A DNA stretch of 64,000 bases from Alphaproteobacteria bacterium (GCA_031291435.1 JARLJC010000108.1:6852-70851); one strand, 5' to 3'. Positions 1,691-62,407 are shown, counted from the stretch's first letter. Made by a program: numbers and translations. The notes: a model not told the origin generated them from the sequence alone.

Positions 1691-1698
1691 GGTTTCTC

Positions 1699-3237: not shown

Positions 3238-3240
3238 GGA

Positions 3241-4329: not shown

Positions 4330-5003
4330 TTTTTATCCGTTTCTTGAGAGGACAGACAGGGGCGATAAGCGGCAAGGAAGAAGGTCACGGTGTTCCGCAC
4401 ATGCGCTGCGATTTCGGCTTCCGTCGGCACCGGCGCCATCAGCAAAAGAGTGCGGATAAGTTTCTCGCCTTTGAGGACGCTGAAAAACTGCTCGGTGGCG
4501 AGGGCGGCGTCGGGAATGGCAAGAGTGCCGCGCTCATCATAGGCGCGCAGCAGATCGGCGAATGCCACGCGGATGCGTTTCGGCCCGCTTTCATAAAAAG
4601 ATTTCACCACTTCGGGATGATGCACGGCCTCGGCATGGATGATGCGCTGCAGGCGGATGGAATCTTCGCGGAAAATGATCGCGGCCACGGTCGCGGCGAT
4701 TTGCGTCAGCGCCTGCTCGGGCGGCAGCGCGGTCAGCTCGGTAAAATCCCGTGGCAGTTTCATCTGGTCGCAGCGATAGGCCATGATCGCGCGGAACAGT
4801 TCCGATTTATCGGCGAAATGGCTGTAGATCGTCAGTTTCGAAACGCCCGCCTGCTTGGCCACCGCTTCCATGCTGGTCAGTTCATAGCCGTTTTGCAGGA
4901 AAAGATGCGTTGCGGCCATCACGATTTCTTCGCGTTTAGCGCCGTCTTTCGGCCGTCCATGGCGGGAAACTATTGTTTCTACAGTCATATTCACGTTTTT
5001 CAT
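4326..5003 (-). CDS. TetR/AcrR-family transcriptional repressor
   Basis: 225 aa. The N-terminal TetR HTH reads REEIVMAATHLFLQNGYELTSMEAVAKQAGVSKLTIYSHFADK. It is the first gene of the efflux operon. Confidence 0.9.
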   Translation of the reverse strand: MKNVNMTVETIVSRHGRPKDGAKREEIVMAATHLFLQNGYELTSMEAVAKQAGVSKLTIYSHFADKSELFRAIMAYRCDQMKLPRDFTELTALPPEQALTQIAATVAAIIFREDSIRLQRIIHAEAVHHPEVVKSFYESGPKRIRVAFADLLRAYDERGTLAIPDAALATEQFFSVLKGEKLIRTLLLMAPVPTEAEIAAHVRNTVTFFLAAYRPCLSSQETDKK

Positions 5004-25425: not shown

Positions 25426-26772
25426 TTAGACCGAAGGCTTTTCGCGCGGCCCGGTGAATTTGGGCGCGGGTACCAGATCGTCGACGGCCCCGGGGGCCAT
25501 TGCCTGCATCGCCTTCAGCGACGGCACGGCACCGCCAGCCGGTCCGGCAAGAGCAGGGCCGTTTTCGTGCGAGAGCGTTTGCACAGCCAGTTTGTCCGCC
25601 ATATCTTTAGGGACGCCACTTTGCTGTAGGATGAGCGATAACGTATCCGATTTGACGCCGCCCTGAATAAGTTCCTGGACAGCACCCTGACCTTCTGGCG
25701 AGTTGATGAACTCGATGGCCTGCTGGCCGGTCATAGTCAGCTGATAGACTGCATTGAGGCGCTGCGCCCCGCGCCCCATCTCAGCGGCCTTGACGACCAT
25801 ATCTGCTGTTTTCTCGCTATCCACAGTTTTTTGGACGACTTCCGCAACTTTGGTGACACCGCGCATTGCCTTCAATGAGGCTACGCCCCCTTCGATAAGA
25901 ACGTCGCCTGCACCGGCCGTCGGTATGGCTACAAGGACGTCACCAACCAAGGAGACGGCGTCAACTGCACCCCACATGGCGGCCCAGCCGAAATGACTCA
26001 TATCGCCGGTCTTGAGGCCTTCCTGAATTTCTTCATAGGAGGTGACGCCGGGTGCCAGCGTCGCAGCCGCGCTCACAACCGCGCCGCCGACATTCTGGAA
26101 GAAGGAGGATGTGCCGGCAGCTGCTGCATCGGACTGACTTCCAACCTGCCCGGTTGTCAGAAGAGACCCATAACGTTTTGCCATATAAGTGCTTGCTGCG
26201 GTGATAAATGAATTTACAGCAGCACTTCCTACCATCAGGCCGACGCCGGGCATGCGGTCTTTTGCGAATTGTCCGAGACCACGGCCTAGTCCGCTGCCAG
26301 TAACTTCGCCCATTTCTTCGGAAGCTGCCATAACAGGCGCTTTTTCCGGAGCAGGCGTTTTAAGTACCTCGTTGCTTGCCTCAGGTCTGGCAGCGTTGGT
26401 ATTTGTCGCATTTTCTGGTGTGCCGGCCGCCTTCATTTTTTCTTGTTCTGCCAATTTTGCTTCGGCTGCATCTTGGGCACGGTCGGCGATTCTTCGGCCA
26501 CGACCGTGCATCATCATATATTGGGACGCGGAAAGTCCGGCCATGCCATTGGGGCCATATGGATTTCCAGCGTTATTAAAATCATTCAGATCAGATTTCT
26601 TGCCGGATTCCAGTAGCCCCAGCAACGCCAGAGGGGCTGTATCGTCTTTATCCTTGGCCCGATTTTGCTCGTCGTCGCTGTTGTTTCGCGCGACAATGGC
26701 AAGCACTTTTTGTTCCAGCGCGGCATTGAGCTGCTCCGGAGTTCCCCCCAACATGTCATCAGGCGATGGCAT
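25426..26772 (-). CDS. Orphan hypothetical protein A (charged N-terminal half, Gly/Ala-rich hydrophobic centre)
   Basis: 448 aa with GGGAGGG 8 nt before the ATG. No signal peptide. The central stretch GVGLMVGSAAVNSFITAAS...GGAVVSAAATLAPG...WAAMWGAVDAVSLVGDVLVAIPTAGAG looks membrane-active. I recognise no family. Confidence 0.65.
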   Translation of the reverse strand: MPSPDDMLGGTPEQLNAALEQKVLAIVARNNSDDEQNRAKDKDDTAPLALLGLLESGKKSDLNDFNNAGNPYGPNGMAGLSASQYMMMHGRGRRIADRAQDAAEAKLAEQEKMKAAGTPENATNTNAARPEASNEVLKTPAPEKAPVMAASEEMGEVTGSGLGRGLGQFAKDRMPGVGLMVGSAAVNSFITAASTYMAKRYGSLLTTGQVGSQSDAAAAGTSSFFQNVGGAVVSAAATLAPGVTSYEEIQEGLKTGDMSHFGWAAMWGAVDAVSLVGDVLVAIPTAGAGDVLIEGGVASLKAMRGVTKVAEVVQKTVDSEKTADMVVKAAEMGRGAQRLNAVYQLTMTGQQAIEFINSPEGQGAVQELIQGGVKSDTLSLILQQSGVPKDMADKLAVQTLSHENGPALAGPAGGAVPSLKAMQAMAPGAVDDLVPAPKFTGPREKPSV

Positions 26773-27071
26773 AGAAAAACCCTCCCAAAAGGGGCAGCAG
26801 GAACAACAAGTGGTTTGCGGTCAGGCCGCGGACCGGCACGGCAGATACCGATTTCCCGCTGTTAAAATAAGTCCGCGCCATAAAATGCCTTTACAATTAT
26901 TATGTAGGGCCAGATTATCATCCTTTGATTAATGATTCAATAAATGTAAAAAGCGATATAGTTTCAAATACTCAATAAAATGGCCGGTTTGGCCGTCGGG
27001 CACACCCGGTAAATTAATGAATGGTTCACGAATAAAAGCTATATCATTGAAGATAAAGGAGAGGCCTTTTT

Positions 27072-29999
27072 ATGATGTTTTTTAAGAAATCTGCCGCCAC
27101 GGCCCCTGCAGAACCCAAACGGCGCTCGACCTTAGGGCTCCTGTTTAACCCCGAAATCGGTGCTTCCGTTCGCCCGTTGGCTCAGGCCGTCGAGATGTTT
27201 TCGACGCTGGTTGCCATGGTTCTGGCGATGAATGGGCTGTTTCCGAAGGATCATCCTAACCTGACCGGTGCGCCTGAAGGGCGCCTTGGTCTTAAGCAGG
27301 TAATGGTTGTCGCGTATCGCCGTTTGTCTTTCACGCGCGCTGGCCTGCCCAAAGTGGTGTTGTTTTTCGCCGTCGCCGGCATGATGGTTTTCTCGGCGCT
27401 TGCGCTGCTGACTTTTGCACTGACTTTGTTCGTCGGCCATGCTCACGCGCAGGCCGCCACTTGCGATACCGGCAGTATGTTCGCCGCCTGCAGCCAGGGA
27501 ACCGATCTGGCGCAAGGCTGGATGGATTTTCTGTTCAAGGGCAAACCGCTGCCTATATTCGTCGACACGAACGGTATTGCCGCTAATTATAGTAACGGCA
27601 TACAAGGCGCTCTGATTACGGCACTGGGTTTTTACAGCAGCGCCATTCTTGTGCTGGCGGCCATCATTCTCTTCTATCACTTGACCGTGATGATCGTGCA
27701 GACGGCCCATAGCGGCGTGCCCATGGGTCAGGCCAGCAAGCAGATCTGGGTTCCCATCCGTCTGGTGTTCGCCATTGGCCTTCTGGTGCCGATTAATAAC
27801 GGTCTCAGCAGCGGCCAGTTTATGGCGATTCAAATCGCCGAATGGGGTTCGGGGCTGGGCGATCAGGTCTGGAACCGCTTCGTCGACAATTTCGTAAAAG
27901 ATTCTTATGCAGCACCGCCCGCGCCGATACAGTTGGGACTGGCCAACGGCTTGGTCGAAAGTGCCGCTTGCATGAAGATGTTCAACGCTATAACCGACCG
28001 CGCGGCGGGGGCAAGTGGTCCTGCTTTTTCCGCTAATCACATTACACCCGTCCATTTCGGGCAAGCGCCCGGTGTCGAAGGCTATAATTTTGAATCGCAA
28101 ATCGGCGAAGAGCATGAATGCGGCGGTTATCAGGTAGGCCCTGCCGTCAATGGAACCGGCGTAGCGGCTACCTTAGGCAGTGCTGTGCATGCGGCGCAAA
28201 TGGCCGCGATGCAGGCCGCCTTCACCAAAGCGAAAGAAGATGTTGATGCCGCCATGGTTCCGGGGCCGGCTGATGCCGATGGAAATCCTACCTACGCGTT
28301 TCTTGACTCAGGCGCATCCAAACCAGCCTACATGAACGTCTTGGACGACGTCGCAAATACCTACCAGGACAGCATCAACAAGGGGCTGCTGGCGGCTACC
28401 CAGAATAGCTTCAAGGCGTCCGACAACACGGACTGGACAGCAATGGGGTGGGTATCTGCGGGTGCTTATCTGAACAGGGTAGCTGGAGACGAAGCTGCTA
28501 TTAACGACAGTGTGCGGGCGAGTGGTACGCCCAGTACCATTCCGGCGACCCTCAAATCCTTTCGTGGCAGTTGGAGCGATCCGGCGAGTAACTACAAGTC
28601 GGCGCAAAAGGGGATTACTGGCCTTATGGATTGGGCTCATCTGGCATCGGGCTATGTTACAGCCAATACCCAGGTTACCGGTTCGGCATCGTGCAACAAT
28701 AATGTGTTTGAGCAGTTCATGAATGCCAAGGCTCATTTCGGCACCTCCATGGTCGACGATATGTTCATGATCGCCGATTATGAAGCGGCAGCCAATTGCG
28801 TCTGGCGACCCTATGTCGAAGGCAGCACGTCACCTCAGTTAGGGCTGCAATTGACCAGCGGCGATCCTTTTACAGAAATGGTTCGTCTTGGCCATGCAAA
28901 TCTGAATACGGCCTATGATATTCTTAACAGCGTGATAGCTATTGAACTAGTTGCCGGTGGCTCAGACGGCATGGGAGAATTCTTGCAGCAATCCGTGGCC
29001 AACGATAAGGGATTTGGGCCCTTTGTCGGGACCGTAACGGGTGGTACCTTTAAATTGGCCGGCGCGGCCGCCAGGGTAATCGGCGGGGTGCTGAGCTTTC
29101 TCGGTCTGGTTTTCTTTGTCGCCGGATTTACGCTGGCCTATTTTCTGCCGCTTATTCCGTTTATACGTTTCTTTTTCGGCACCCTGACCTGGGTCGTTAT
29201 GGTTATGGAATCGGTCGTGATGATTCCTCTCGTGGCGCTCGCTCATTTAAGCCCGGAAGGCGAAGGCTTGCCCGGGGCCAATGCCAAAGCTTCTTATTAC
29301 TTCCTTTTCAATATCATGCTGCGCCCGGCTTTGATGGTGTTCGGCCTGATCTGTGGGTTGTTGGTATTCATGGCAGCGGTGTTCTTTATGAACAAACTCT
29401 ATGGCCTAGCGATTACCCCGACCACTGTGGGTGATGTGCATCCCTTCATGTCGCATCTGGTTTTCAGTGTCCTGTATGTCGCGCTGCTTTATATTGCGGC
29501 AAATAATTCGTTTAAACTTGTGAATACTTTCTCTGATCACGCAATGTCCTGGATGGGTGGGCAGGCCGCGCCCAAGGAATCGATCGGCGAAGCCGAACAT
29601 CTGGGGCAGTCTATCTCGCTGGTATCCGGCTATGCTGGCCAGCAGATGTTCACCCAGCTTACGCAGGGTGCGCAAGCCGGGGGTAAGGCATTGGGCGGCG
29701 TATTAGGTGGTACTGGCAAAGTGATTGGCAAACACAGGGGTAACGTACAGAGCGGCAACGCAGCTCTTTCAGCTTTTAATGGTGCTGAATTTGAATCGCA
29801 GATGAAGGGTTATACACATTGGGGCGCGAACGGAAAGAAGCTACCGAATAATACGGTCCGCCCCATTCCTCCTGCGAGTGCGACGGACGATGGTTTCTAT
29901 AAATCTGGAAAAAGCATGCTAGGCGATAGCTCAGCGGCCCCTGCGACGGGTTCGCCGCCCGCATCGACTCCCGATGAGGGTGGGGATGCCGGTACCTGA
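27072..29999 (+). CDS. Polytopic membrane protein, tentatively DotA/TraY family
   Basis: 975 aa with AAGGAGAGG before the ATG. It has an N-terminal TM cluster, a soluble central domain of about 370 aa and a C-terminal TM cluster. The motif MIVQTAHSGVPMGQASKQIWVPIRLVFAIGLLVP resembles the DotA/TraY signature as I remember it. Confidence 0.5.
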   Translation: MMFFKKSAATAPAEPKRRSTLGLLFNPEIGASVRPLAQAVEMFSTLVAMVLAMNGLFPKDHPNLTGAPEGRLGLKQVMVVAYRRLSFTRAGLPKVVLFFAVAGMMVFSALALLTFALTLFVGHAHAQAATCDTGSMFAACSQGTDLAQGWMDFLFKGKPLPIFVDTNGIAANYSNGIQGALITALGFYSSAILVLAAIILFYHLTVMIVQTAHSGVPMGQASKQIWVPIRLVFAIGLLVPINNGLSSGQFMAIQIAEWGSGLGDQVWNRFVDNFVKDSYAAPPAPIQLGLANGLVESAACMKMFNAITDRAAGASGPAFSANHITPVHFGQAPGVEGYNFESQIGEEHECGGYQVGPAVNGTGVAATLGSAVHAAQMAAMQAAFTKAKEDVDAAMVPGPADADGNPTYAFLDSGASKPAYMNVLDDVANTYQDSINKGLLAATQNSFKASDNTDWTAMGWVSAGAYLNRVAGDEAAINDSVRASGTPSTIPATLKSFRGSWSDPASNYKSAQKGITGLMDWAHLASGYVTANTQVTGSASCNNNVFEQFMNAKAHFGTSMVDDMFMIADYEAAANCVWRPYVEGSTSPQLGLQLTSGDPFTEMVRLGHANLNTAYDILNSVIAIELVAGGSDGMGEFLQQSVANDKGFGPFVGTVTGGTFKLAGAAARVIGGVLSFLGLVFFVAGFTLAYFLPLIPFIRFFFGTLTWVVMVMESVVMIPLVALAHLSPEGEGLPGANAKASYYFLFNIMLRPALMVFGLICGLLVFMAAVFFMNKLYGLAITPTTVGDVHPFMSHLVFSVLYVALLYIAANNSFKLVNTFSDHAMSWMGGQAAPKESIGEAEHLGQSISLVSGYAGQQMFTQLTQGAQAGGKALGGVLGGTGKVIGKHRGNVQSGNAALSAFNGAEFESQMKGYTHWGANGKKLPNNTVRPIPPASATDDGFYKSGKSMLGDSSAAPATGSPPASTPDEGGDAGT

Positions 30000-30081
30000 G
30001 CGGAATAGCTGAGATTTGTTACTGTCCCCGTTCAACTCTTTTAATGCGTGATTGTCTGTCGTACTCAGGCAAAACGCAGTT

Positions 30082-31716
30082 CTAGCCGCCCGGAGTGAAA
30101 GCTGGTGCTGTCGCATAGACGGTTTGCGTGTTATTCTGCTGGGCTCGCGGAAGGGGACCCACGGCGCCTACTGGAACATAACCGCTTTGTGTAGTGACCT
30201 GACCATCACTGCCATAAGTCAGAAATGATACGGCGCAGAATGGCGCGGCGCAGCTCTCGACGTGAACCATTGTATTTTTCAGAAGTGTAAAGGCCCTATG
30301 CTGAGGGCTGCTGTCTCCGAAAACAGCGGTATCATCAAGGAGCGTTGCATAGCTGTTGTTGACGACCTTTGTCTTGCCGTGCAGGTCACGCTTCAGATTA
30401 TCGCTTGCGGCTGTTTGCAGATCGTTGGAGACCTGAGTCAATTCAGCTTGCGCCGTCATAAGTCTCTCATCATCAACTTTGCTTAGCCAGCCAGAAACGG
30501 TTTTGCCGTTTTGCAGATAGGTAACGCCCATATAGCCATTCTTTTCCACGAGTGTTCGGGTAGCGGCATCAGCGGTTTCTATCTGGCACACAGCATTGCC
30601 CCCTGGTGCCGCTAGAAGAGCAATCGGCACTGCAGGACTAACATAAGCAGTGACGCCCAGAGCCGGGCTTTGCCGCACGAATAGGGCCGCATTGGTTGGC
30701 TGGATGGCGCAGTTAGGCAGCGACTCTACAGAGATGGCGACAGGCGCCGCTATAGCTGAAGCAGCGGGAATTGAAACCGTCGATGGCTTGGTCGCTGCCG
30801 CGGGGGCCGGCGTAACCGGCGCGGCCACGGGTGCCGTTGTTGTCGATATCGCCGGAGTTGGGGAATTATCAGGAGCTTTGACGGGCTGGTTTTGTGGGAT
30901 CGTGCTGGCAGCACCAAGCATTAATAACCCAGCGCCCAAGCTGCCGAATGCGGCTTTAGGGCCTAGTTCCCAAACGCCTTTGGCGAATAGCGCGCTAATC
31001 CCAAGGGTACCCCAGATAGCTGCCGGAGCCGGAATGGCCCAACCTGCATAGCCAAAAAAAGACCCCAGGGGACCGACACTCTGCCCGACCAGATTGACGA
31101 GAGCAAAGCCACACACACCAGCGGCAGCGACTTCAAAAACTCTCAAGATAGGGGTTTTGAGGTCCACTTTTGTTGCGCGCGGAGCCGGAGCCTTGCCGCC
31201 TATCGAACCCGCGGGGCGCTGCTGTGGGCTGGCTTGCTGGGGGCCCGGTTGCGCGGCTGGTTGTTGTGGCGTAGTGCCTGGCTGTGCGCCTGATGTGCCG
31301 GGACCAGGCGCAGGGGTCGCGGGTTGCGCCGGTTGTGCTCCCTGCTTCTGTTCTTCCGCGATGATGTAGTTCGCGGCCCGATCAGGCATTGGTTGCAGGC
31401 GATCTCGAAGTCTCTCCATGTATTTAAGAGCCCCGGGCACGTCGTTAATCGTGGCATTTGGAGCGACAATGCGTTGGCGAACATTATCAGATTCTATTTT
31501 AAGCTTACCGGCAATTTGGTCGGCGAGAGGTTGCGGGTATTTCTGGCGCTCGTTTTTCTGTATTGTCTGCGCAAGAGCATCCATATCATTGACGAGGACT
31601 GTAGTGTTTGCGCGGACGGTATCCATATTGGAGAGGCGTTGAATAACGTCAATCTTGGTCAGGATGATCGTCAAATCGATGCTCAATCGTCCTTTGATTT
31701 TATCGCTCTCCGCCAT
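30082..31716 (-). CDS. Orphan membrane protein C (cytoplasmic N-domain, Pro/Gln linker, TM bundle, two SH3b-like C-terminal modules)
   Basis: 544 aa. TM region VAAAGVCGFALVNLVG...WAIPAPAAIWGTLGISALFA...LGAGLLMLGAA. Pro/Ala/Thr linker. SH3b-like endings ...YLQNGKTVSGWLSKV and ...GQVTTQSGYVPVGAV. Confidence 0.65.
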   Translation of the reverse strand: MAESDKIKGRLSIDLTIILTKIDVIQRLSNMDTVRANTTVLVNDMDALAQTIQKNERQKYPQPLADQIAGKLKIESDNVRQRIVAPNATINDVPGALKYMERLRDRLQPMPDRAANYIIAEEQKQGAQPAQPATPAPGPGTSGAQPGTTPQQPAAQPGPQQASPQQRPAGSIGGKAPAPRATKVDLKTPILRVFEVAAAGVCGFALVNLVGQSVGPLGSFFGYAGWAIPAPAAIWGTLGISALFAKGVWELGPKAAFGSLGAGLLMLGAASTIPQNQPVKAPDNSPTPAISTTTAPVAAPVTPAPAAATKPSTVSIPAASAIAAPVAISVESLPNCAIQPTNAALFVRQSPALGVTAYVSPAVPIALLAAPGGNAVCQIETADAATRTLVEKNGYMGVTYLQNGKTVSGWLSKVDDERLMTAQAELTQVSNDLQTAASDNLKRDLHGKTKVVNNSYATLLDDTAVFGDSSPQHRAFTLLKNTMVHVESCAAPFCAVSFLTYGSDGQVTTQSGYVPVGAVGPLPRAQQNNTQTVYATAPAFTPGG

Positions 31717-31742
31717 ATGAAAAACCTCTCCGCCATATGAAA
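31706..31742. repeat. 17-bp direct repeat, period 20, spanning the start codon of the 544-aa gene
   Basis: ctctccgccatatgaaa occurs at 31706-31722 and again at 31726-31742. On the coding strand, the upstream copy supplies GGAGAGG 10 nt before the used ATG. Confidence 0.8.
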
Positions 31743-41740: not shown

Positions 41741-44700
41741 ATGTCGCATCCTTTTTTGCCTGTCTGCCACCGTTCGCCCGGTCAAAGGCAAAAGATTCGC
41801 CCCGGTAGAACGGGCATAACTCTTGCGCTCGGCCTTATGCTGGGCGGTGCGGCGCATGCGGCGGCACCGGCATCGAACGCGTTGCCGACCGGCGGCCAGA
41901 TCGTTTCCGGCAGCGGCAGCATCAGCCAGACCGCCAGCAGTCTCACCGTCAATCAGAGCAGCGACAAGCTGGTCGCCAACTGGAGCAGCTTCGATATCGG
42001 CAGCAACGCCAGCGTCAATTTCGTGCAGCCCAGCGCCACGAGCGTCGCGCTCAACCGTATTTCGGGCGGCGCTTCGCAGATTTTCGGGCATCTGACCGCC
42101 AACGGCAAAGTCATCCTCGTCAACCCCAACGGCATCATTTTCGGTGCGGGTTCGCGGGTCGATGTCGGCGGGCTGGTGGCCTCGTCGCTTGATATGTCGG
42201 ATGCCGACTTTGCCGCCGGGAACAATCATTTCGCGGGCTCGGGCACCGGCCCCATCGTCAATAACGGCACTATCACGGTTCCGGCGGGCAGCGTCGTTGC
42301 GATGATCGCGCCGCAGGTCAGCAATAACGGCACTATCAATGCTTCGGGCGGCGGCGTGGCGCTGGCCGCGGGGCAGGATGTAACGCTCGATTTCACCGGC
42401 GATAATCTCGTCAGCGTGACCGTCAGCAGGGCGGCTTTCGACGCTCTGGTGGAAAATAAAGGCATCATCGTTGCCGATGGCGGCGTCGCGATCATGAGCG
42501 CGCAAAGCGCCAACGCTTTGCTTGAAACCGTCGTCAATAATGATGGCATCGTTCAGGCTAACAGCCTGTCGGACAAAAATGGCCGCATCATCCTCGATGG
42601 CGGCGACAGCGGCACCGTTGCGGTAAGCGGCACTTTGCAGGCCGACGGCACGCAGGCGGGCCAGAGCGGCGGCACCATTACCGCCACCGGCAATCAGGTC
42701 AATGTCGCGGCGACCGTGGTGATCGACGCGTCGGGCAATGCGGGTGGCGGCACTATCAAGATCGGCGGCGGCGTGCGCGGACAGGATGCCAGCATCGCCA
42801 ACGCCAAGGACGTCACCGTCGCGGCGGGCGCGCAAATCAAGGCCAACGCCACCGATAACGGCAATGGCGGCACCGTCACGGTATGGTCAGACGGCAAGAC
42901 CGATGTTTCGGGCGCCATGCAGGCCAAAGGCGGCCCCAACGGCGGCGATGGCGGTTATGTCGAAACTTCGGGCGCAAGCCTCACGCTGGAAAAATATCTG
43001 TTCGTCAATACGGGCGCCGCCAAAGGCAGCGGCGGCCTGTGGCTGCTCGACCCCACCACCGAAACCTATCAGACCATCGGCGGTACCGAAGCATCGGCCA
43101 TCGAGACCGCCCTTGCCAGCGGCGAAGTCAACGATGTCACCAGCGGCGGTATTCATATCACCTCCAGCATCGTCAGCGGCGCGGGCAATAAGCTGACCTT
43201 CCAGTCGGCCAATCAGATTCTGGTCGATGCGGTGACGGTATCGACCGGCGGCGGCGCTCTTTATTTTGGCGGCGAGGCGGGCGGCACCTCCTATGCTACC
43301 GGCGCGGCGTCGGGCCAGGCGGGTGTGGTGCTGAACGGATCGACGCTGAACGCGGGCGCGGGCCTGCTCACCATTCGTGGGCAGGGTTATACGCCGGGGC
43401 TGCTTACCGGCACCGGCAGTCTTTCCGCCAATGAATCCGCCGGCATCGGCGTCGATTTTCAGGGCACGGTTTCGCTGACCGGCGGCACTATCAACGTGAC
43501 CGGCGTCGGCGGTACCGGGCAGGCAGTTGAAAACACCACGGCCACCGGGCCGCTGGTCACCGGCACCGGCTATTTCTGGAGCACCAACACCCATGTCGGC
43601 GGCAACAACGGCGCCAGCGCCTCGGCCGGCGATGGTGCGGTCGGCGTGGATGTCGAATCAGGTGCCAGCGTAACGGTTACAGGATCGACCGCGGCCACCA
43701 TCAATGCGACCGGCGGTGATGGCGGGGATGCCAGCATCGATAATCTTGGCGGCAGCGGATCCTGGGGCGGCAATGGCGCGATCGGTTACTATCAGCAGGG
43801 CGCCGTGGCTTTCAATACGCCGACGGCGACCATTAGTGCTTCGCGCGGCTATAGCGGGTATGGCAGCAGCCCCGGATACTATGTCGACGAAGCTGTCGGC
43901 CCCCAATGCAACGGCGACTGCAATTACGATGCTTATGATTCCGGTAACGGGCTCTATGATGCCTATGGCGGCGGCACCGAAGAATATGGGACCACGCCGC
44001 AAATATCCTATAACGACGGTAGCGGCAGCGACGCCAGCTACGCTCTCTATATCAACGGCAATCTCAGCAATACCAACGGCGTCGGCAGTATTCTGAATAT
44101 CGAAGGCAATTATGACGCCTATCAGAACAGCGGCGCTTTGACCGCTTCGCATGTGATGATGGAGGGTCTCGACAGCGAGAATCCCGTTTTCAATTTCAGC
44201 CAGGCCAACAACGCCATCGACATGCTGGCGTCACAGAGCGTCGGCACCCTCTATTTCAACGATAAGGATAGCGGCACGCAATCGCTCCATATCGGCACCG
44301 TCAGCGGCGTCGCGGGCGTCAATACCGCCAGCGAGACCAACATTCAGGTTCAGGGCGGCAACGGCGCCAGCGCCTCGCTCATCGTCGATAATGGCGCGGG
44401 CGTCGCCGCCGGAACCTATGGCACCCTGACCGCCAACACCATTCTGTTCAACAGCGGCGACAGCAGCATCAGCGGCACCTATTTCGCCGTCCGTCCCTAC
44501 AGCACCAGCCAGAATTTCGTGATGGCCGCCGCCGATCCCAACGCGGGCGGCGATCTTTATATTCCCGTCGGCAATATCTCGAAATTCAACAGTTCAAGCC
44601 TGACTTTCGGCGATTCCGCCGACACCGGCAACGTCACCGTCAGCAGCAACGCCGATTTCGGCAGCACCAACATGGCCTTCCTGACCGGCAGCGGCGGCAT

Positions 44701-46900
44701 CACTTTGTCCGGCAATATCACCACCACCGGCAATATGGCTTTGCGAAGCGGCGGCACCGTCAACGCCACCGGCGCGCTGACCGTCAATACGCTCGGCCTC
44801 GACGGCGCGGGCGGCGTCTTCAATCTCGACAATTCGGCGAACGTCGTCAGCAATCTTCTGACCACCGATTCGGTCGGCACGGTCGATTTCCTCGACAACC
44901 ATGCTCTCAATATTTCCGATACCTATCTGAACGAAGGCGCCAACGCCTGGAACAATCCGCCGGACGATAATGTCGGCTTTGCCGGCGTACATGCCAGCAA
45001 CCGCGTTTATATCAATGCGGCAGGCAATGTTACCATAGCTTCGGGTGATACGGTAACGGCGCAGGGTTCTTATACCGGTTCGGCCACCTACAGCAGCCCC
45101 GCCAACAAGAACGTGCAGGAAGCGGCCTCGGTGGTGCTGGTCTCGGGCGGCATCTTCACCAATAACGAGGGCAGCGACGCGATTTCGACCGCGGCCAGCA
45201 ACCGTTTCCTGGTTTACGCTTCGGCGCCCAAGAACAATACCAGCGGCAGCGGTTCGGGCGAGAACATGTCGTACGATTTCAAGATGTACGCCTTCGATTT
45301 CTACAACAGCGGCCACACCGGTAATGGCAATAACGGTTTCGATTACGACAATGGCGGTTTCGGCCGCAGCCTTCCCGCCAGCACCGTCGGCAGCGGCTTC
45401 ATCTATTCCAGCCAGCCGACTTTGACCGTCACGCCCAAGGCGCAGAGCGGCACCTACGGCAACAGCCCAAGCCTCAGCACAGTTTACAACACCGGTTATC
45501 AGCTGGGCGGTTTCGTCGACGGCGACAGCCAGAGCAACGATACCGGCACGCCCGCCTTCACCACGACGGCGACCAGCGCTTCGGCGGTCGGCACTTACGA
45601 TATTTCCTACACGGCGGCTACAGCGGGCGACGCCACTCACGGTCTCGTGCCCAAATATAACGGCGTCGTGATGGGCTACAGCGTCGTCAACAGCACGCGC
45701 GCCAATGGCTATACCGTCGGCCAACGTCCGATCACCGTCACCGCCACCGGCGGCCAGAGCATGGTTTATGGCGACAGCGTTCCGACGCTTGCTTACACCG
45801 TAAGCAGCGGCACACTCGTCAACACCGGCACCAGCGGCAATGGCAGCCTGTCGGGCAACCTCGCCACCAATGCCACGTCCGCGTCGAATGTCGGCAACGG
45901 CTACAACATTACGCAAGGCACGCTCGCCAATGCCAATTACCTTATCACGTATAACGGCACCACTTTCAGCATCACCAAGCGTCCGGTCACCATCACCGCC
46001 ACCGCCGATCAAAGCAAAATCGTCGGCACCGCCGATCCTGTCTTCACTTATTCGCCGTCTTATACCGGCAACGGCGGCAAACCCGCACTCGTCAACGGCA
46101 ATACATTCACGGGCCTTCTGACCCGCGACAGCGGCGAGCTGGTCGGCAGCTACAACATCAATCAGGGCAGTCTCGCTATTTCCGACGGGAACAGCGGCAA
46201 TAATTATCAAATCACCTATGTGACGAATCCGTTCAAGGTCAATCCGATTATCTCCGTTCCTGCCACAGACCCGCAAACCGGCGTCAACGGCACCGGATCG
46301 ACCGTGGCTGCGGATACGGCGGCGAACAATGTTGGCCCCGGCACCGGTTCCGGCACCATCACCACCAACGCCAACACACAACTGGTCTCCGATAACCAGA
46401 CGCATGCGCCCGCAACCGGCGGCATGACTCTGACATCGGGCGGCGGCACCGGCCCCGTTTCCGTCACGCAGTCTGGCCCCACCGTGACCTTCACCTTCCC
46501 CGCTGGCGCTACCGTGCCGCCGGTGCCGCCTGCCGCGCAATCGGGCCTGCCGCTGTTCGTCGCCGGCAGCGGGCAGGGCACCACTTACAGCCTGACGCAA
46601 AAAGGTTCGGCGCTCAGCGCCACCACGGTCGGCGCCGCGACAACGCCGCAACCCACCAACACCGTGTTCGCCAGCACACCCGCGCAGGCAAGCCTCACCC
46701 AATCCGACGGTTCCAGCCTGACGATTTCGGTGGGCATTTCCTCGACCGGGGTTTTGGTGGTAGAAGTTCCCGCCGGGTCGATATCCACCCTTGATCCTCA
46801 AACGACGATGCTGCTCGCCTGGACGGTTGCCAGCCAGAATTTCGGCGCTAATGTAGGAAGCATCACCTCCGTCGTGATTACCCCGGCTAAAGAATCCTGA
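41741..46900 (+). CDS. Two-partner-secretion exoprotein (TpsA, filamentous haemagglutinin family) with MBG-type repeats
   Basis: 1719 aa. Extended signal peptide. The TPS domain reads LPTGGQIVSGSGSI...VNQSS.KLVANWSSFDIG...VNFVQPS...ALNRI...LTANGKVILVNPNGIIFG. A beta-helix Gly/Asn/Thr-rich body follows. Three MBG-like units (...YGDSVPTLAYTV...NYLITYNGTTFSITKRPVTITAT...). Confidence 0.9.
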   Translation: MSHPFLPVCHRSPGQRQKIRPGRTGITLALGLMLGGAAHAAAPASNALPTGGQIVSGSGSISQTASSLTVNQSSDKLVANWSSFDIGSNASVNFVQPSATSVALNRISGGASQIFGHLTANGKVILVNPNGIIFGAGSRVDVGGLVASSLDMSDADFAAGNNHFAGSGTGPIVNNGTITVPAGSVVAMIAPQVSNNGTINASGGGVALAAGQDVTLDFTGDNLVSVTVSRAAFDALVENKGIIVADGGVAIMSAQSANALLETVVNNDGIVQANSLSDKNGRIILDGGDSGTVAVSGTLQADGTQAGQSGGTITATGNQVNVAATVVIDASGNAGGGTIKIGGGVRGQDASIANAKDVTVAAGAQIKANATDNGNGGTVTVWSDGKTDVSGAMQAKGGPNGGDGGYVETSGASLTLEKYLFVNTGAAKGSGGLWLLDPTTETYQTIGGTEASAIETALASGEVNDVTSGGIHITSSIVSGAGNKLTFQSANQILVDAVTVSTGGGALYFGGEAGGTSYATGAASGQAGVVLNGSTLNAGAGLLTIRGQGYTPGLLTGTGSLSANESAGIGVDFQGTVSLTGGTINVTGVGGTGQAVENTTATGPLVTGTGYFWSTNTHVGGNNGASASAGDGAVGVDVESGASVTVTGSTAATINATGGDGGDASIDNLGGSGSWGGNGAIGYYQQGAVAFNTPTATISASRGYSGYGSSPGYYVDEAVGPQCNGDCNYDAYDSGNGLYDAYGGGTEEYGTTPQISYNDGSGSDASYALYINGNLSNTNGVGSILNIEGNYDAYQNSGALTASHVMMEGLDSENPVFNFSQANNAIDMLASQSVGTLYFNDKDSGTQSLHIGTVSGVAGVNTASETNIQVQGGNGASASLIVDNGAGVAAGTYGTLTANTILFNSGDSSISGTYFAVRPYSTSQNFVMAAADPNAGGDLYIPVGNISKFNSSSLTFGDSADTGNVTVSSNADFGSTNMAFLTGSGGITLSGNITTTGNMALRSGGTVNATGALTVNTLGLDGAGGVFNLDNSANVVSNLLTTDSVGTVDFLDNHALNISDTYLNEGANAWNNPPDDNVGFAGVHASNRVYINAAGNVTIASGDTVTAQGSYTGSATYSSPANKNVQEAASVVLVSGGIFTNNEGSDAISTAASNRFLVYASAPKNNTSGSGSGENMSYDFKMYAFDFYNSGHTGNGNNGFDYDNGGFGRSLPASTVGSGFIYSSQPTLTVTPKAQSGTYGNSPSLSTVYNTGYQLGGFVDGDSQSNDTGTPAFTTTATSASAVGTYDISYTAATAGDATHGLVPKYNGVVMGYSVVNSTRANGYTVGQRPITVTATGGQSMVYGDSVPTLAYTVSSGTLVNTGTSGNGSLSGNLATNATSASNVGNGYNITQGTLANANYLITYNGTTFSITKRPVTITATADQSKIVGTADPVFTYSPSYTGNGGKPALVNGNTFTGLLTRDSGELVGSYNINQGSLAISDGNSGNNYQITYVTNPFKVNPIISVPATDPQTGVNGTGSTVAADTAANNVGPGTGSGTITTNANTQLVSDNQTHAPATGGMTLTSGGGTGPVSVTQSGPTVTFTFPAGATVPPVPPAAQSGLPLFVAGSGQGTTYSLTQKGSALSATTVGAATTPQPTNTVFASTPAQASLTQSDGSSLTISVGISSTGVLVVEVPAGSISTLDPQTTMLLAWTVASQNFGANVGSITSVVITPAKES

Positions 46901-46929
46901 GGCCGTTCAGATAAAAGGTCCCGCTTTTC

Positions 46930-48693
46930 ATGCTGACAACAAAACCGGTTTTTCGCTTCCACATCTCGCATCTCGCGATGATTGCAAGTCTGGCCGCGGC
47001 GCCCGCTTTCGCCGCGCCCGCCGATAACCTTCCTGGCGCCGGGCAATTGCTCAACCAACAGCAGCAGCTGCGCCAGCAATTACCGCAACGTCTGCCGCAG
47101 GGCGAAGGCGAGGCGCAGGCGCCAGCCGTCAGTCCCCAGGCCGGGCCGCAGGTTCTGGTGCAGGATTTCCATTTCACCGGTGCCGACGGCCTTGCCGGCG
47201 ACGCCGATCTGCAGGCGGTGGTGGCGTCTTCGGTCGGGCAGAAGCTCAATTTCGCGCAATTACAGGCGGTGGCGGCCCGCGTCACCGATTATCTGAAACA
47301 GAAGGGCTGGCCTTTGGCGCACGCCTATCTGCCAAAGCAGGATGTCACCGACGGCCATATCGAAATCGCCATCCTGCAGGGTCATGTCGAAAGCAAGGGC
47401 GCGACCATCGTGGCCCATGACGATGTGCGCCTGTCGCCCGACATCATCAAGGGTACGGTCGATGGCGCGCTGCCCGGCGGCGCGCAGTCGCCGAGCCAGG
47501 AAGATCTCGAGCGCGGCGTATTGTTGCTGAACGACATGCCCGGTATGTCGGCCCATTCGACGCTGGAACGCGGCAGCGAACCCGAATCCACCCGCGTCGT
47601 CGTCGATACCAGCGAAGGCCCGTGGGTCAGCGGCTCATTATCCGCCGACAATTACGGCAACCGCTATACCGGCGCGCCGCAGCTTAATCCCGAGGCCAGC
47701 CTCAACGATCCGCTCGGCATCGGCGATCAGTTGACCGCGGGCGGCACCGCTTCGACCACCGGCGGCCTCGAACTTTTTCAGGCCGGCTACAGCCTGCCCA
47801 TCGGTGTTGACGGGTTGCGCTTCGCCGCCAGTTACGATCATCTGAAATATACGCTCGACCCCTCGATGGCGGGAACCGACGCCAACGGTACCGCGCAGAC
47901 TATCGATGCGAAATTGACCTATCCCCTGATCCGCACCCGCGCCACCAGCGTGTGGGGCGGCGTCGAATATTCCTATAAAACGCTGATGGATAACGTCGCG
48001 GGCACCACTATCAGCAACCGCACGATCCATGACGGCAGCGTCAACATCACCGCCACCGACAATGACGATTTCGGCGGCGGCGGCATGAACACTTTGCTGC
48101 TGTCGGCCACCACCGGCAATCTCGACCGCGGCGCGGTCGCTTCCGATCTGCAAACCGACAGCACCACAGCGCACAGCAATGGCCGGTTTGAAAAAGCCAC
48201 CGGCTCGGTCGCGCGTCTGCAGCATCTGACCGACGATTTCTCGTTCTTCGGCGCGGTGCGTGGGCAATTGGCCGATAAAAATCTCGATTCGTCCGAGAAA
48301 TTCATCCTCGGCGGCCCCACCGGCGTGCGCGCTTATCCCATCGGCGAAGGCACCGGCGACGAAGGCTGGGTCAGCAATCTCGAAGTGCGTTACGACGTGC
48401 CGCAGGAATTACCGATCGGCAAATTGCAGCTGATCGCGTTCGGCGACGCGGGCGGCGTGTGGCTGAACCATGATGCGTGGAGCGGCGCCGTCGATACCGC
48501 CACCGACAAGAACACTTATATGCTGGCGGGTGCCGGCATCGGGGCCAACCTGACGATGGCCGATGCCTATACCGTGCGCGCCTCCTGGGCGATCGCCATC
48601 GGCGATAATCCGGGCCGCAGCACGACCGGCGAGAACAGCGACGGCCTCAATCGCGGCAACGCTTTCTGGCTGCAGGCCGCCGCGCAGTTTTAA
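46930..48693 (+). CDS. TpsB outer-membrane transporter (ShlB/FhaC/HecB family)
   Basis: 587 aa. Signal peptide ...AAPAFA|AP, a POTRA region, a beta-barrel and the aromatic terminus ...WLQAAAQF. 29 nt after tpsA. Confidence 0.88.
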   Translation: MLTTKPVFRFHISHLAMIASLAAAPAFAAPADNLPGAGQLLNQQQQLRQQLPQRLPQGEGEAQAPAVSPQAGPQVLVQDFHFTGADGLAGDADLQAVVASSVGQKLNFAQLQAVAARVTDYLKQKGWPLAHAYLPKQDVTDGHIEIAILQGHVESKGATIVAHDDVRLSPDIIKGTVDGALPGGAQSPSQEDLERGVLLLNDMPGMSAHSTLERGSEPESTRVVVDTSEGPWVSGSLSADNYGNRYTGAPQLNPEASLNDPLGIGDQLTAGGTASTTGGLELFQAGYSLPIGVDGLRFAASYDHLKYTLDPSMAGTDANGTAQTIDAKLTYPLIRTRATSVWGGVEYSYKTLMDNVAGTTISNRTIHDGSVNITATDNDDFGGGGMNTLLLSATTGNLDRGAVASDLQTDSTTAHSNGRFEKATGSVARLQHLTDDFSFFGAVRGQLADKNLDSSEKFILGGPTGVRAYPIGEGTGDEGWVSNLEVRYDVPQELPIGKLQLIAFGDAGGVWLNHDAWSGAVDTATDKNTYMLAGAGIGANLTMADAYTVRASWAIAIGDNPGRSTTGENSDGLNRGNAFWLQAAAQF

Positions 48694-50147: not shown

Positions 50148-50188
50148 TCCGGTGGATTTAGGGGGCGGTATTCGTCTAGACTGGCCGG

Positions 50189-59372: not shown

Positions 59373-59430
59373 GGCTATCTCTCCTAATGAAATCGATAGC
59401 GAATTCTAGGACGGCATTGGTCCCCGGGCT

Positions 59431-59444
59431 TTGACCAAGATCAA
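59431..59444. promoter_or_regulatory. FNR/FixK-type box upstream of the host-attachment-family gene (one mismatch)
   Basis: TTGACcaagATCAA, centred about 65 nt upstream of the ATG at 59372. Confidence 0.5.
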
Positions 59445-61122: not shown

Positions 61123-61291
61123 ATCGCCAAATCCTTACGGTTCACCCGGCAGAATCTTCCTTCCGGCATAGGCAAAATATGCCGCAAAATTATCGCGTAA
61201 GTTTTGGAAATTCAAGACGTTATAGAGTTAAGGCGCGTGAAGAGGCGGGATGCAAACAACCTCACCACAAACCCCCAAAGGAGTTTTTCCC

Positions 61292-62395: not shown

Positions 62396-62407
62396 TCATT
62401 CATAACC

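What the first reader, a model, noticed from the sequence alone, without database searches (positions are those of the whole stretch)
25426..31742. Orphan DotA/TraY-like membrane protein flanked by two large unknown proteins in a lower-G+C islet
Three large ORFs sit between the two-component cluster and the low-oxygen block: 448 aa (minus strand), 975 aa (plus) and 544 aa (minus). This segment is visibly less G+C-rich than its surroundings. My hand counts of single 60-nt lines are 29/60 at 28921, 34/60 at 29401, 31/60 at 30301 and 37/60 at 28381. That compares with 39/60 at 33001 and 47/60 at 9301. The divergent promoter region at 26.85-27.07 kb is strongly AT-rich. The 975-aa protein has the DotA/TraY layout: an N-terminal TM cluster, a soluble central domain of about 370 aa, and a C-terminal TM cluster. 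It also carries QTAHSGVPMGQ...IWVPIRLV, which resembles the family signature as I remember it. DotA/TraY normally belongs to type IVB secretion or IncI conjugation loci. This window has no DotB/DotO-type ATPase, coupling protein, relaxase, DotC/D/G/H, integrase or tRNA. The two partners have no recognisable family. Protein A has a charged N-terminal half and a Gly/Ala-rich, membrane-active-looking core. Protein C has a cytoplasmic helical domain, a Pro/Gln linker, a TM bundle, a Pro/Ala/Thr linker and two SH3b-like modules. This could be a stand-alone DotA-based membrane module of unknown function.
Basis: partly seen in the sequence, partly recalled or inferred. Interest (0 to 1): 0.82.

Follow-up and report, generated by a model that had tools for sequence, protein, structure and literature searches.

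The report
Unlinked chromosomal DotA-like channel gene islet
A true relative of DotA, the channel protein of type IVB secretion systems, sits in a small, compositionally foreign three-gene islet with no other secretion-system gene within 64 kb, and it belongs to a large, unstudied group of such genes in uncultured Alphaproteobacteria whose way of working is unknown.

Summary
Three ORFs lie at the stated coordinates: A 448 aa, DotA-like 975 aa, C 544 aa. The 975-aa protein is a clear DotA/TraY member: TIGR04346 313 bits against a cutoff of 100, a family profile that hits Legionella DotA 9ngy at E 3e-61, and DotA as the only significant Foldseek hit. The three genes share atypical codon usage (GC3 0.54-0.61 against 0.66-0.81 for 31 other window genes). 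No T4BSS gene or tRNA was found in the 64 kb.

New points:
- The protein belongs to a large alphaproteobacterial MAG clade, with at least 150 clusters at 50% identity.
- The clade has a conserved N-terminal two-helix module that is a separate small gene in some genomes. An invariant A-H-A motif follows it, aligned to DotA's signal-peptide end.
- Of 34 relatives with at least 7 kb on both flanks, 4 lie near Dot genes. The others lie among housekeeping genes or beside a type IVb-pilus-like operon.
- A and C have no detectable homologs in 5.8 billion proteins. C has one weak homolog next to the closest DotA relative. A shares only its architecture with DotA neighbours elsewhere.

Best reading (about 0.45): the DotA chamber of a dispersed chromosomal T4BSS-derived machine. 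A stand-alone module (about 0.25) is not excluded. The SH3b claim is unsupported.

The parts
25426..26772 (-). Protein A, 448 aa. It has no signal peptide, a charged and probably disordered N-terminal part of about 150 aa, a Gly/Ala-rich hydrophobic core (residues about 160-300, strongest hydrophobic segment 265-293), and a helical C-terminal part. A strong Shine-Dalgarno sequence (GGGAGGG) precedes it.
   Evidence: ORF. No Pfam, NCBIfam, PADLOC or PDB hit. No homolog in 5.8e9 proteins. GC3 0.566. Hydropathy. Weak similarity to DotA-adjacent genes L039_538 (z 7.1), L021_526 (5.9), L038_504 (5.1) and L002_538 (3.6). RBS read.
26773..27071 (.). AT-rich (GC 0.42) divergent intergenic region between A and the DotA-like gene. 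It presumably holds both promoters. AAGGAG lies 8-10 nt before the DotA-like ATG.
   Evidence: Sigma-70-like matches are no more frequent than in shuffles. No Rfam match.
27072..27449 (+). N-terminal module of the DotA-like protein (residues 1-126). It carries the FNPxxGxS motif, two hydrophobic helices (about 39-57 and 95-121), and then the near-invariant A124-H125-A126. It is absent from Legionella DotA and from plasmid TraY. In other genomes it occurs as a separate ORF of 124-153 aa.
   Evidence: Profile coverage and stand-alone ORFs in L030, L032, L035, L036, L041, L042 and L050. Further small ORFs with a DotA-profile match (125-129 aa) lie between tandem paralogs in L101, L105 and L106. 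A-H-A is conserved in 51, 47 and 53 of 54 sequences and aligns with the end of DotA's signal peptide...ALA|EN. Plasmid TraY proteins match only residues about 165-855.
27597..27806 (+). Conserved TM pair carrying the family signature (residues 176-245; QTAHSGVPMGQ...IWVPIRLV). This is the most conserved part, with median 67% identity to relatives.
27807..29051 (+). Variable soluble domain, presumably periplasmic (residues 246-660). Median identity to relatives is 22%. C300 and C350 are invariant. It is the counterpart of DotA's 'extended domain'.
   Evidence: The description of the DotA domain comes from PMC12501162.
29052..29999 (+). C-terminal cluster of hydrophobic helices (residues 661-830), the counterpart of DotA HH1-HH5, followed by a low-confidence Gly/Ser/Ala-rich tail (831-975) and the stop codon.
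30082..31716 (-). Protein C, 544 aa, convergent with the DotA-like gene. It has an N-terminal helical bundle (1-125), a Pro/Gln linker, about 3 hydrophobic helices (189-267), a Pro/Ala/Thr linker, and a C-terminal part with predicted beta-hairpins at low confidence.
   Evidence: ORF. No family or PDB hit. No homolog in 5.8e9 proteins. It is homologous to L002:12930-14687(-), directly downstream of the closest DotA relative. AF2 gives pLDDT 48.9 overall and 60-89 only in residues 1-125. Foldseek finds only generic helical bundles. GC3 0.538.
31706..31742 (-). Exact 17-nt tandem duplication (TTTCATATGGCGGAGAG twice, 20-nt period) across the start of C. The upstream copy gives an out-of-frame ATG, and its GGAGAGG lies 8 nt before the real start codon.

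Best explanation
Shown: the 975-aa gene encodes a genuine DotA/TraY-family polytopic inner-membrane protein.

Inferred by homology with Legionella DotA: it should assemble into an oligomeric chamber, pentameric in Legionella, anchored in the inner membrane with a variable domain facing the periplasm.

The protein carries a lineage-specific N-terminal two-helix module that is a separate small protein in some relatives. The invariant A-H-A after the second helix aligns to the end of DotA's signal peptide. I therefore infer that signal peptidase may cut there and release the module.

The gene sits with two fast-evolving membrane proteins, A and C, in a 6.3-kb unit whose codon usage is foreign to its surroundings. 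This points to a jointly acquired or jointly evolving module.

I commit to this reading: it is the DotA-type channel subunit of a chromosomal, type-IVB-derived secretion apparatus whose ATPases and outer-membrane core are encoded elsewhere in the genome, in a dispersed arrangement. A and C would be lineage-specific accessory or substrate proteins. C would span the inner membrane and reach into the periplasm. A would be a membrane-inserting or translocated partner.

Confidence by step: DotA/TraY identity about 0.97, a functional and not decaying gene about 0.85, dependence on a T4BSS encoded elsewhere about 0.45.
For: Identity:
- TIGR04346 313.5 bits against a cutoff of 100.
- The family profile hits DotA 9ngy at E 3e-61 in three stretches that cover both TM clusters.
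- AF2 pLDDT 74, and DotA is the only significant Foldseek hit (E 4.8e-10, probability 1.0).

Functional gene:
- The ORF is intact and has a good RBS.
- All family-invariant residues are present.
- Conservation is strong in the membrane parts (46-67%) and weak in the soluble domain (22%).

Link to T4BSS:
- Clade members with the same N-terminal module lie within 10 kb of DotB, DotC-like, DotD, IcmT, DotG or DotH in L011, L013, L027, L048 and L061.
- That is 4 of 34 loci with at least 7 kb on both flanks, which by my own rough estimate is well above what random placement would give. In a neighbour-joining tree they are interleaved with unlinked members and do not form their own clade.
- Those T4BSS genes are themselves chromosomal and interspersed with housekeeping genes such as SBP, DnaJ, TruB and PNPase. 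A dispersed layout is therefore real in this group.

Unit of three genes:
- Shared low GC3 and shared codon deviation.
- C is conserved next to the closest relative.
- The same low-GC3 pattern, a DotA-like gene plus unknown neighbours, recurs in L028, L024, L021 and L002.
Against: - The 64-kb window has no Dot/Tra gene other than the DotA-like gene, and no IcmX/TraW-like partner.
- 27 of the 34 loci with at least 7 kb on both flanks have neither a T4BSS marker nor a pilus-type ATPase nearby.
- Many relatives sit in conserved housekeeping synteny. Examples are acetyltransferase-M16 peptidase-ThrC-cox in L004, L060, L068 and L069, FtsH-DotA-PPDK in L008 and L062, and RlmH-GpmI-EnvC in L051 and L054.
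- Several genomes carry 2-3 paralogs, some in tandem.
- The low GC3 argues against an ancient resident component in this particular genome.
- The NF033886 T4SS_DotA equivalog cutoff is not reached (188 against 500).
- No whole genome could be inspected.
Confidence: 0.45

Rival explanations
1. Stand-alone (exapted) DotA-based envelope module. The DotA-like chamber works without a T4BSS, together with fast-evolving A-like and C-like membrane proteins. In some lineages it may work with a type IVb-pilus-like secretin, ATPase and platform operon. It might act as a conduit or membrane-insertion device in cell-cell interaction.
For: - No T4BSS gene in the 64-kb window.
- 27 of the 34 loci with at least 7 kb on both flanks have neither a T4BSS marker nor a pilus-type ATPase nearby.
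- Positions among housekeeping genes are conserved over DotA divergence of 35-40% identity.
- Paralog expansion and tandem arrays occur in 9 loci.
- DotA-like lies beside a secretin-ASH-T2SSE-T2SSF operon in L009, L021, L039, L044, L059 and L080. Adjacency is kept in an inverted arrangement in L037.
- The A-like architecture recurs beside DotA-like genes in 7 loci.
- The C homolog lies beside the closest relative.
- MAG titles include Micavibrio. The M. aeruginosavorus ARL-13 genome paper reports no T4SS (PMC3189940).
Against: - T4BSS-linked members are interleaved with unlinked ones in the tree and share every family feature, including the N-terminal module.
- DotA is known only as part of a T4BSS, and its assembly in Legionella needs DotG and IcmX (PMC12501162).
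- Whether ARL-13 carries a member of this clade is unknown.
- The similarity among A-like proteins is marginal, and the architecture enrichment test used thresholds tuned after the fact.
- MPF_I plasmids also carry type IVb pilus genes next to their T4BSS (pGOX1), so the pilus link may only reflect that ancestry.
Confidence: 0.25
2. Remnant of a degraded integrative conjugative element or T4BSS island. The three genes are what survives of a horizontally acquired MPF_I-type element and no longer form a working machine.
For: - Codon usage of exactly these three genes is foreign.
- The closest relative, L002, lies in an accessory region with an IS66 transposase and a HigB/HigA pair.
- No partner genes lie nearby.
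- A and C have no detectable homologs elsewhere.
Against: - All three ORFs are long and intact and have good ribosome-binding sites.
- Family-invariant residues are kept, and the membrane parts are conserved.
- Orthologs at 39-46% identity are also full length and also unlinked, which indicates long-term purifying selection.
- No integrase, tRNA or flanking direct repeats.
Confidence: 0.12
3. A vertically inherited core envelope protein of this alphaproteobacterial group whose role is unrelated to secretion, for example membrane homeostasis or cell-envelope biogenesis. Only the fold would come from DotA.
For: - Placement is conserved next to core genes such as ThrC/cox, FtsH/PPDK, RlmH/GpmI/EnvC, AlaRS/SucC and RecQ in many lineages.
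- The family is very large.
Against: - In this window the gene is compositionally foreign and not in any of those conserved contexts.
- The soluble domain is highly variable, and the neighbours vary between lineages. Both are typical of interaction or secretion proteins and not of housekeeping ones.
- Some members are linked to T4BSS genes.
Confidence: 0.08

Closest known systems
[quoted passage not shown]
   Same: Homologous over the signal-peptide-like helix, the TM pair with the TAHxG...W.P.R signature, part of the soluble domain, and the C-terminal hydrophobic helices. It is the only significant structural match. The overall layout is the same: a large variable domain with cysteines between two membrane clusters.
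   Different: - Sequence identity is about 16-25%, and the DotA equivalog cutoff is not reached.
- The window protein has an extra N-terminal two-helix module of about 120 aa.
- Its soluble domain is shorter (about 415 aa against about 530), with six Cys upstream of the C-terminal helix cluster against 5 disulfides per monomer in DotA.
- No IcmX, DotG or any other Dot/Icm gene lies nearby, whereas dotA lies in a dot/icm region.
- The Foldseek TM-score is low (0.24-0.27), so the global conformation of the monomer model differs.
TraY of IncI1/MPF_I conjugative plasmids (TIGR04346 DotA/TraY; examples: Lichenicola plasmid NZ_CP053709, Gluconobacter pGOX1)
   Same: Same family HMM. About 25% identity over residues about 165-855.
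   Different: Plasmid TraY proteins are shorter (about 750-780 aa), lack the N-terminal module and the C-terminal tail, and lay inside a full tra/trb (Dot-like) cluster in both plasmids inspected. None of 2753 plasmid matches covers at least 80% of the query.
Dispersed T4SS genes and VirB6 paralog expansion in Rickettsiales (rvh system).
   Same: It is a precedent for a chromosomal type IV system split over several loci, with several large, tandem paralogs of the inner-membrane channel subunit. VirB6 is the distant counterpart of DotA (PMC12501162).
   Different: That system is type IVA, not IVB. Its remaining components are known to be present in the same genomes, which is not shown here.
DotF/IcmG-TraP-type bitopic T4BSS proteins (comparison for protein C only)
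   Same: Architecture only: a cytoplasmic N-terminus, a membrane segment, a Pro/Ala-rich linker and a small C-terminal domain. The positional equivalent in pGOX1 (hyp400, after DotG) gave a Smith-Waterman z of 6.1.
   Different: The alignment is driven by the low-complexity linker. The L002 homolog of C does not match, and the Lichenicola equivalent matches only in the linker. There is no evidence of homology.

Membership tests
DotA/TraY family (TIGR04346 / IPR027628) | Whole-protein HMM score above the curated cutoff | tested here: met
   313.5 bits against a cutoff of 100, E 3.3e-93, residues 176-829 on profile positions 22-656 of 656.
DotA/TraY family (TIGR04346 / IPR027628) | Conserved signature in the second TM pair (TAHxG...W.P.R.) | tested here: met
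   QTAHSGVPMGQASKQIWVPIRLV at residues 210-232. T211, A212, G215, W226, P228 and R230 are invariant in 25 relatives. The stretch aligns to the DotA residues.
DotA/TraY family (TIGR04346 / IPR027628) | Topology: N-terminal membrane helices, large soluble domain, C-terminal hydrophobic helix cluster | tested here: met
   Hydropathy and the AF2 secondary structure.
DotA/TraY family (TIGR04346 / IPR027628) | Fold similarity to solved DotA | tested here: inconclusive
   9ngy is the only significant Foldseek hit (E 4.8e-10, probability 1.0), but the TM-score is only 0.24-0.27. The comparison is a monomer model against a protomer of an in situ pentamer.
T4SS_DotA equivalog (NF033886, Legionella-type DotA) | Score above the equivalog cutoff | tested here: not met
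   187.7 bits against a cutoff of 500.
Type IVB secretion / MPF_I conjugation system | Co-located ATPases (DotB/TraJ, DotO/TraU, DotL/TrbC) | tested here: not met
   phmmer with the Lichenicola and Gluconobacter DotB/TraJ and DotO/TraU proteins found nothing in the window. No DotL/TrbC reference sequence was in either set, so the coupling protein was covered only by the Pfam scans. No T2SSE-family hit in the scanned ORFs. The test covers only the 64-kb window.
Type IVB secretion / MPF_I conjugation system | Outer-membrane core (DotC, DotD, DotH, DotG) and DotI or IcmT nearby | tested here: not met
   No hits in the window. The same queries did detect these genes in L011, L013, L048 and L061.
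Type IVB secretion / MPF_I conjugation system | IcmX/TraW-type periplasmic partner of DotA | tested here: not met
   A and C have no signal peptide, no NCBIfam TraW or IcmX hit, and no PDB hit to the IcmX chain. A secreted Cys-rich family that accompanies the T4BSS-linked relatives (alignment A3) is absent from the window.
Type IVB secretion / MPF_I conjugation system | Complete gene set somewhere in the same genome | not testable with these tools
   The exact-sequence look-up found no record of the contig. A 60-nt pattern from the window end had no match in metagenome contigs.
Type IVB secretion / MPF_I conjugation system | Relaxase or coupling protein (conjugation) | tested here: inconclusive
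   None seen among about 45 Pfam-scanned window ORFs, but a few small ORFs were not scanned and no relaxase-specific search was run.
Genomic island | Atypical composition relative to the flanks | tested here: met
   GC3 and the codon score deviate for exactly these three genes. The islet GC lies in the lowest 2% of windows of the same size.
Genomic island | Integrase, tRNA target, flanking direct repeats | tested here: not met
   No tRNA. No convincing flanking direct repeats. No integrase among the scanned neighbours.
SH3b domain (claimed for protein C) | Match to an SH3-type Pfam model or a confident SH3-like fold | tested here: not met
   No Pfam family at E<=1. The AF2 C-terminal part has pLDDT 26-58. 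No significant Foldseek match.

The most novel reading that the evidence does not exclude
A large group of uncultured Alphaproteobacteria, including MAGs labelled Micavibrio, may have turned the DotA channel subunit into an autonomous envelope device. In this reading it works without a type IVB secretion system. Its partners would be fast-evolving A-like membrane-inserting proteins and C-like bitopic proteins, and in some lineages a type IVb-pilus-like secretin, ATPase and platform operon. The window islet would be a horizontally moved copy of that minimal module.
Probability: 0.25. Interest if true: 0.8.

Novelty: new variant of a known kind. Interest (0 to 1): 0.55.

Why it matters
DotA was an enigmatic T4BSS component until the 2025 in situ structure showed it as the pentameric protochannel that gates effector translocation (PMC12501162).

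A big, diverse, chromosomal clade of DotA-like proteins that is mostly unlinked to other Dot genes raises a clear question. Either type-IVB-derived machines are common and dispersed in a poorly known part of the Alphaproteobacteria, or the channel subunit has a life of its own. This clade also has its own fused module, tandem paralogs, and hypervariable neighbours.

Either answer would extend the known range of type IV secretion. The N-terminal module and the invariant A-H-A site give a concrete, testable processing hypothesis. My literature searches found no paper that mentions DotA together with Micavibrio and none describing this clade.

Tried and rejected
1. N-terminal module as an IcmV fusion. 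icmV precedes dotA in Legionella (from my own knowledge). There was no NCBIfam hit at E<=1 for the module or for five stand-alone versions. An HMM of the module found nothing in two plasmid T4BSS loci. The idea is unsupported.

2. The secreted Cys-rich family beside T4BSS-linked relatives (A3) as IcmX/TraW. There was no PDB profile hit and no hhalign match to the TraW-like plasmid protein. It remains only a positional analogue.

3. C as DotF/TraP. The alignment is driven by low-complexity sequence.

4. SH3b domains in C. Not supported.

5. Defence-system or phage origin. No PADLOC hit, and only one insignificant PHROG hit.

6. Riboswitch or sRNA in the AT-rich spacer. No Rfam hit at E<=1. Promoter-like sites are no more frequent than in shuffles.

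7. Retrieving the rest of the 93-kb contig. The exact-protein look-up found no record and the 60-nt pattern had no match.

8. Iterative HMM search to unite the A-like proteins. It did not extend beyond L021 and L039. A feature-based enrichment test gave 4 near against 0 far, p=0.01, but the thresholds were tuned on the known examples, so I do not rely on it.

9. L110, at 64% identity over the N-terminus, looked like a closer relative. It is a frameshifted, low-quality contig.

10. GGDEF synteny with L004. This is only generic domain similarity.

Full report
**1. Observation**

The three ORFs exist as described: A 25426-26772(-) 448 aa, the DotA-like gene 27072-29999(+) 975 aa, and C 30082-31716(-) 544 aa.

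Five of the six hand GC counts are exact. The islet has GC 0.548 against 0.590 for the window, which puts it in the lowest 2% of windows of the same size.

The decisive compositional signal is at third codon positions. GC3 is 0.566, 0.605 and 0.538 for A, DotA-like and C. It is 0.66-0.81 for 31 other genes of the window. A codon-usage score is zero or negative only for these three. The three genes are therefore one compositional unit bounded at about 25.4 and 32.0 kb. The 299-nt spacer between A and the DotA-like gene has GC 0.42. Both genes have strong ribosome-binding sites.

**2. Identity of the 975-aa protein**

- Pfam has no model that hits it.
- NCBIfam TIGR04346 (DotA/TraY) scores 313.5 bits against a cutoff of 100. 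The Legionella-type equivalog NF033886 scores 188 bits against 500 and is not reached.
- A profile of 54 relatives hits Legionella DotA (PDB 9ngy) at E 3e-61 in three stretches.
- An AF2 model built on that alignment has pLDDT 74.4 and pTM 0.68. DotA is its only significant PDB match (E 4.8e-10, probability 1.0). The TM-score is low (0.24-0.27), as might be expected when a monomer model is compared with a protomer of the in situ pentamer.
- The remembered signature is real. QTAHSGVPMGQ...IWVPIRLV contains six residues that are invariant in 25 relatives.

**3. What the window does not contain**

- No tRNA.
- phmmer with all genes of two annotated MPF_I/T4BSS loci, from the Lichenicola plasmid and Gluconobacter pGOX1, found only the DotA-like gene in the window. 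The same queries did detect Dot genes in other loci.
- The flanks encode histidine kinases and response regulators, OmpW, HemN, a Crp/Fnr regulator, cytochrome bd, an efflux operon, a two-partner secretion pair, and a copper ATPase. This is ordinary chromosome.
- There are no flanking direct repeats. No integrase was seen among the scanned ORFs.

**4. The family**

The closest protein in 5.8 billion is only 46% identical. An exhaustive HMMER search found 6419 clusters at 50% identity with E<=1e-3. All of the best 150 score above 538 bits. Scans of GTDB genomes and JGI metagenomes gave 84 non-redundant loci. In the genome scan all 50 loci come from MAGs titled Alphaproteobacteria, Rhodospirillaceae, Micavibrio, 'Bdellovibrionales' or Rickettsiales.

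The clade has a conserved N-terminal module of about 120 aa. It carries the motif FNPxxGxS...R(E/A)GLP(Q/K) and two hydrophobic helices. Legionella DotA and plasmid TraY lack it. The module occurs as a separate ORF of 124-153 aa in L030, L032, L035, L036, L041, L042 and L050, and similar small ORFs of 125-129 aa with a DotA-profile match lie between the tandem paralogs in L101, L105 and L106.

Directly after it comes A124-H125-A126, conserved in 51, 47 and 53 of 54 sequences. It aligns to the ...ALA|EN end of DotA's signal peptide. The signal peptide itself is described in PMC12501162. I infer a possible signal-peptidase site that would release the module. This is not shown.

Conservation is uneven along the protein:

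| Region | Median identity to the window protein |
|---|---|
| Signature TM pair (176-245) | 67% |
| C-terminal helix cluster (661-830) | 46% |
| N-terminal module (1-125) | 44% |
| Soluble domain (246-660) | 22% |
| Tail (831-975) | 17% |

**5. Genomic contexts of relatives**

Among 34 non-redundant loci with at least 7 kb on both sides:

- 4 have T4BSS markers within the flanks. These are L011 and L061 (DotC-like; Pfam also shows DotD and a DotB-type T2SSE gene in L061), L013 (IcmT, DotB, DotC-like) and L048 (DotG, DotH). L027 has one marker but shorter flanks.
- 3 have a pilus-type ATPase.
- 27 have neither.

The linked members carry the same N-terminal module and are scattered among unlinked ones in a neighbour-joining tree. 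In L061 the Dot genes are chromosomal and sit between SBP, DnaJ, TruB and PNPase genes.

Unlinked members often occupy conserved housekeeping positions:

- acetyltransferase-M16 peptidase-ThrC-cox in L004, L025, L060, L068 and L069;
- FtsH-DotA-PPDK in L008 and L062;
- RlmH-GpmI-EnvC in L051 and L054;
- AlaRS on one side and SucC on the other in L035, L036 and L042.

A sub-clade (L009, L021, L039, L044, L059, L080) has the gene at the end of a secretin-ASH-T2SSE-T2SSF operon with three further unknown genes. In L037 the same genes are adjacent but inverted. MPF_I plasmids also carry type IVb pilus genes, so this link may reflect common ancestry.

Nine loci have tandem paralogs, up to three in L032. 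Several MAGs have 2-3 copies on different contigs.

**6. Proteins A and C**

Neither has any hit in Pfam, NCBIfam, PADLOC or PDB sequences, and there is only one insignificant PHROG hit. Neither has a homolog in the 5.8-billion-protein search.

C is nevertheless homologous to the gene that lies convergent and directly downstream of the closest DotA relative (L002). The match is 24% identity over 362 aa at BLASTP E 5e-6, with a Smith-Waterman z of 23 against shuffles and the same architecture.

AF2 on the single sequence of C is poor (pLDDT 48.9). Only an N-terminal helical bundle is moderately confident. The claimed SH3b modules are not supported.

A has no signal peptide, a charged N-terminal part and a Gly/Ala-rich hydrophobic core. 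Proteins of the same build lie next to DotA-like genes in these positions:

- L001 and L038, divergent upstream, as in the window;
- L002, L021, L039 and L058/L079, second gene downstream.

Similarity to A is marginal, with z of 7.1, 5.9, 5.1 and 3.6. I treat this as a lead and not as homology.

In several relatives the DotA-like gene and its unknown neighbours also have lower GC3 than their flanks (L028, L024, L021, L002). The association 'DotA-like plus fast-evolving, compositionally atypical neighbours' therefore recurs.

**7. Interpretation**

Shown:

- This is a real DotA/TraY homolog.
- It is intact and constrained in its membrane parts.
- It sits in a three-gene, compositionally foreign unit.
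- It is unlinked to T4BSS genes over 64 kb.
- It is a member of a large chromosomal alphaproteobacterial clade with a distinctive N-terminal module.

Inferred: by homology with the DotA pentamer (PMC12501162), it forms an inner-membrane and periplasmic chamber.

The open question is what it works with. T4BSS-linked and unlinked members are interleaved and indistinguishable in their family features, and Dot genes in this group are themselves dispersed among housekeeping genes. I therefore rank 'DotA subunit of a dispersed, chromosomal, T4BSS-derived apparatus' first (0.45).

| Rank | Reading | Confidence | Main support |
|---|---|---|---|
| 2 | Autonomous or exapted module | 0.25 | Most well-flanked loci are unlinked to Dot genes, positions among housekeeping genes are conserved, paralog arrays exist, and there is the pilus-operon link |
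| 3 | Decaying remnant | 0.12 | Disfavoured by the intact ORFs and by full-length orthologs at 39-46% identity |
| 4 | Non-secretory housekeeping role | 0.08 | Conserved placement next to core genes |

**8. Limits**

No complete genome could be inspected. The contig is not retrievable. The tree is a simple neighbour-joining tree. T4BSS detection in the flanks used phmmer with two reference sets plus precomputed Pfam hits, so very divergent components could be missed. Taxon labels are those in the record titles.

**9. Novelty**

The family assignment itself is already made by NCBI and JGI annotation of some relatives, which are named 'DotA/TraY family protein'. My literature searches found no paper that mentions DotA together with Micavibrio and none describing this clade.

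What appears undescribed:

- the clade's size;
- its mostly unlinked chromosomal placement;
- the separable N-terminal module with the conserved A-H-A;
- the tandem paralogs;
- the recurrent hypervariable neighbours.

I rate it a new variant of a known kind, with interest 0.55.

Noticed in passing
window 41741-48693: A 1719-aa ORF (41741-46900, +) is followed by a ShlB/FhaC-type transporter with a POTRA_2 domain (46930-48693). This looks like a two-partner (type Vb) secretion pair. The overlapping minus-strand ORFs have no Pfam hits. GC skew is strongly negative across 44-47 kb.
   Followed up: partly
window 5112-7427: A 771-aa ORF with no Pfam hit carries a long Glu/Gln/Arg-rich repeat region (EQPEQREEPQQQEQRQES...). 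TRF finds a 63-nt-period array at 6562-6745. AT skew reaches 0.57 at 6-7 kb.
   Followed up: partly
window 31706-31742: An exact 17-nt tandem duplication (20-nt period) lies at the start codon of C. The upstream copy creates an out-of-frame ATG (17-codon ORF), and its GGAGAGG lies 8 nt before the real start.
   Followed up: partly
window 254-5003 and L001:12849-17603: The OEP-MFS-adaptor-TetR efflux operon at the left end of the window is 53-71% identical and collinear with the operon that lies directly downstream of the DotA-like gene in L001. The two organisms are therefore related, and the DotA neighbourhood has been rearranged.
   Followed up: partly
window 48915-52372: A histidine kinase with an ethylene-receptor-like N-terminal (ETR1_N) domain lies next to a heavy-metal P-type ATPase.
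   Followed up: no
window 59000-64000: There is a second low-GC stretch (GC 0.52-0.55). It holds an ORF that reads like an ECF sigma factor from its translation (no family search was run), small ORFs downstream of it, a Ser/Thr-rich EF-hand protein (61250-62395), and another Ser-rich ORF.
   Followed up: no
L021:1222-15921, also L009, L039, L044, L059, L080; inverted in L037: In one sub-clade the DotA-like gene ends an operon of secretin, ASH/Ig-domain protein, T2SSE ATPase, T2SSF platform and three unknown genes. It is followed by an A-like protein of 526-538 aa.
   Followed up: partly
L032:6993-15812; L041, L101, L105, L106; L035, L036, L042: These loci hold tandem arrays of two or three DotA-like paralogs, with a stand-alone copy of the N-terminal module between or after them. 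In L035, L036 and L042 the two paralogs lack the module.
   Followed up: partly
L011:17079-18323, L012:2192-3418, L013:8292-9833, L027:14541-15854, L061:5142-6473: A secreted, Cys-rich family of 408-513 aa (motif GFCQN...CW...GRSxLQAxHDxAYR) occurs only in the T4BSS-linked relatives. It has no match to IcmX/TraW or to anything in PDB.
   Followed up: partly
L058:18237-23219 and L079:17724 onward: A giant ORF of more than 2100 aa lies a few genes downstream of the DotA-like gene in one lineage.
   Followed up: no
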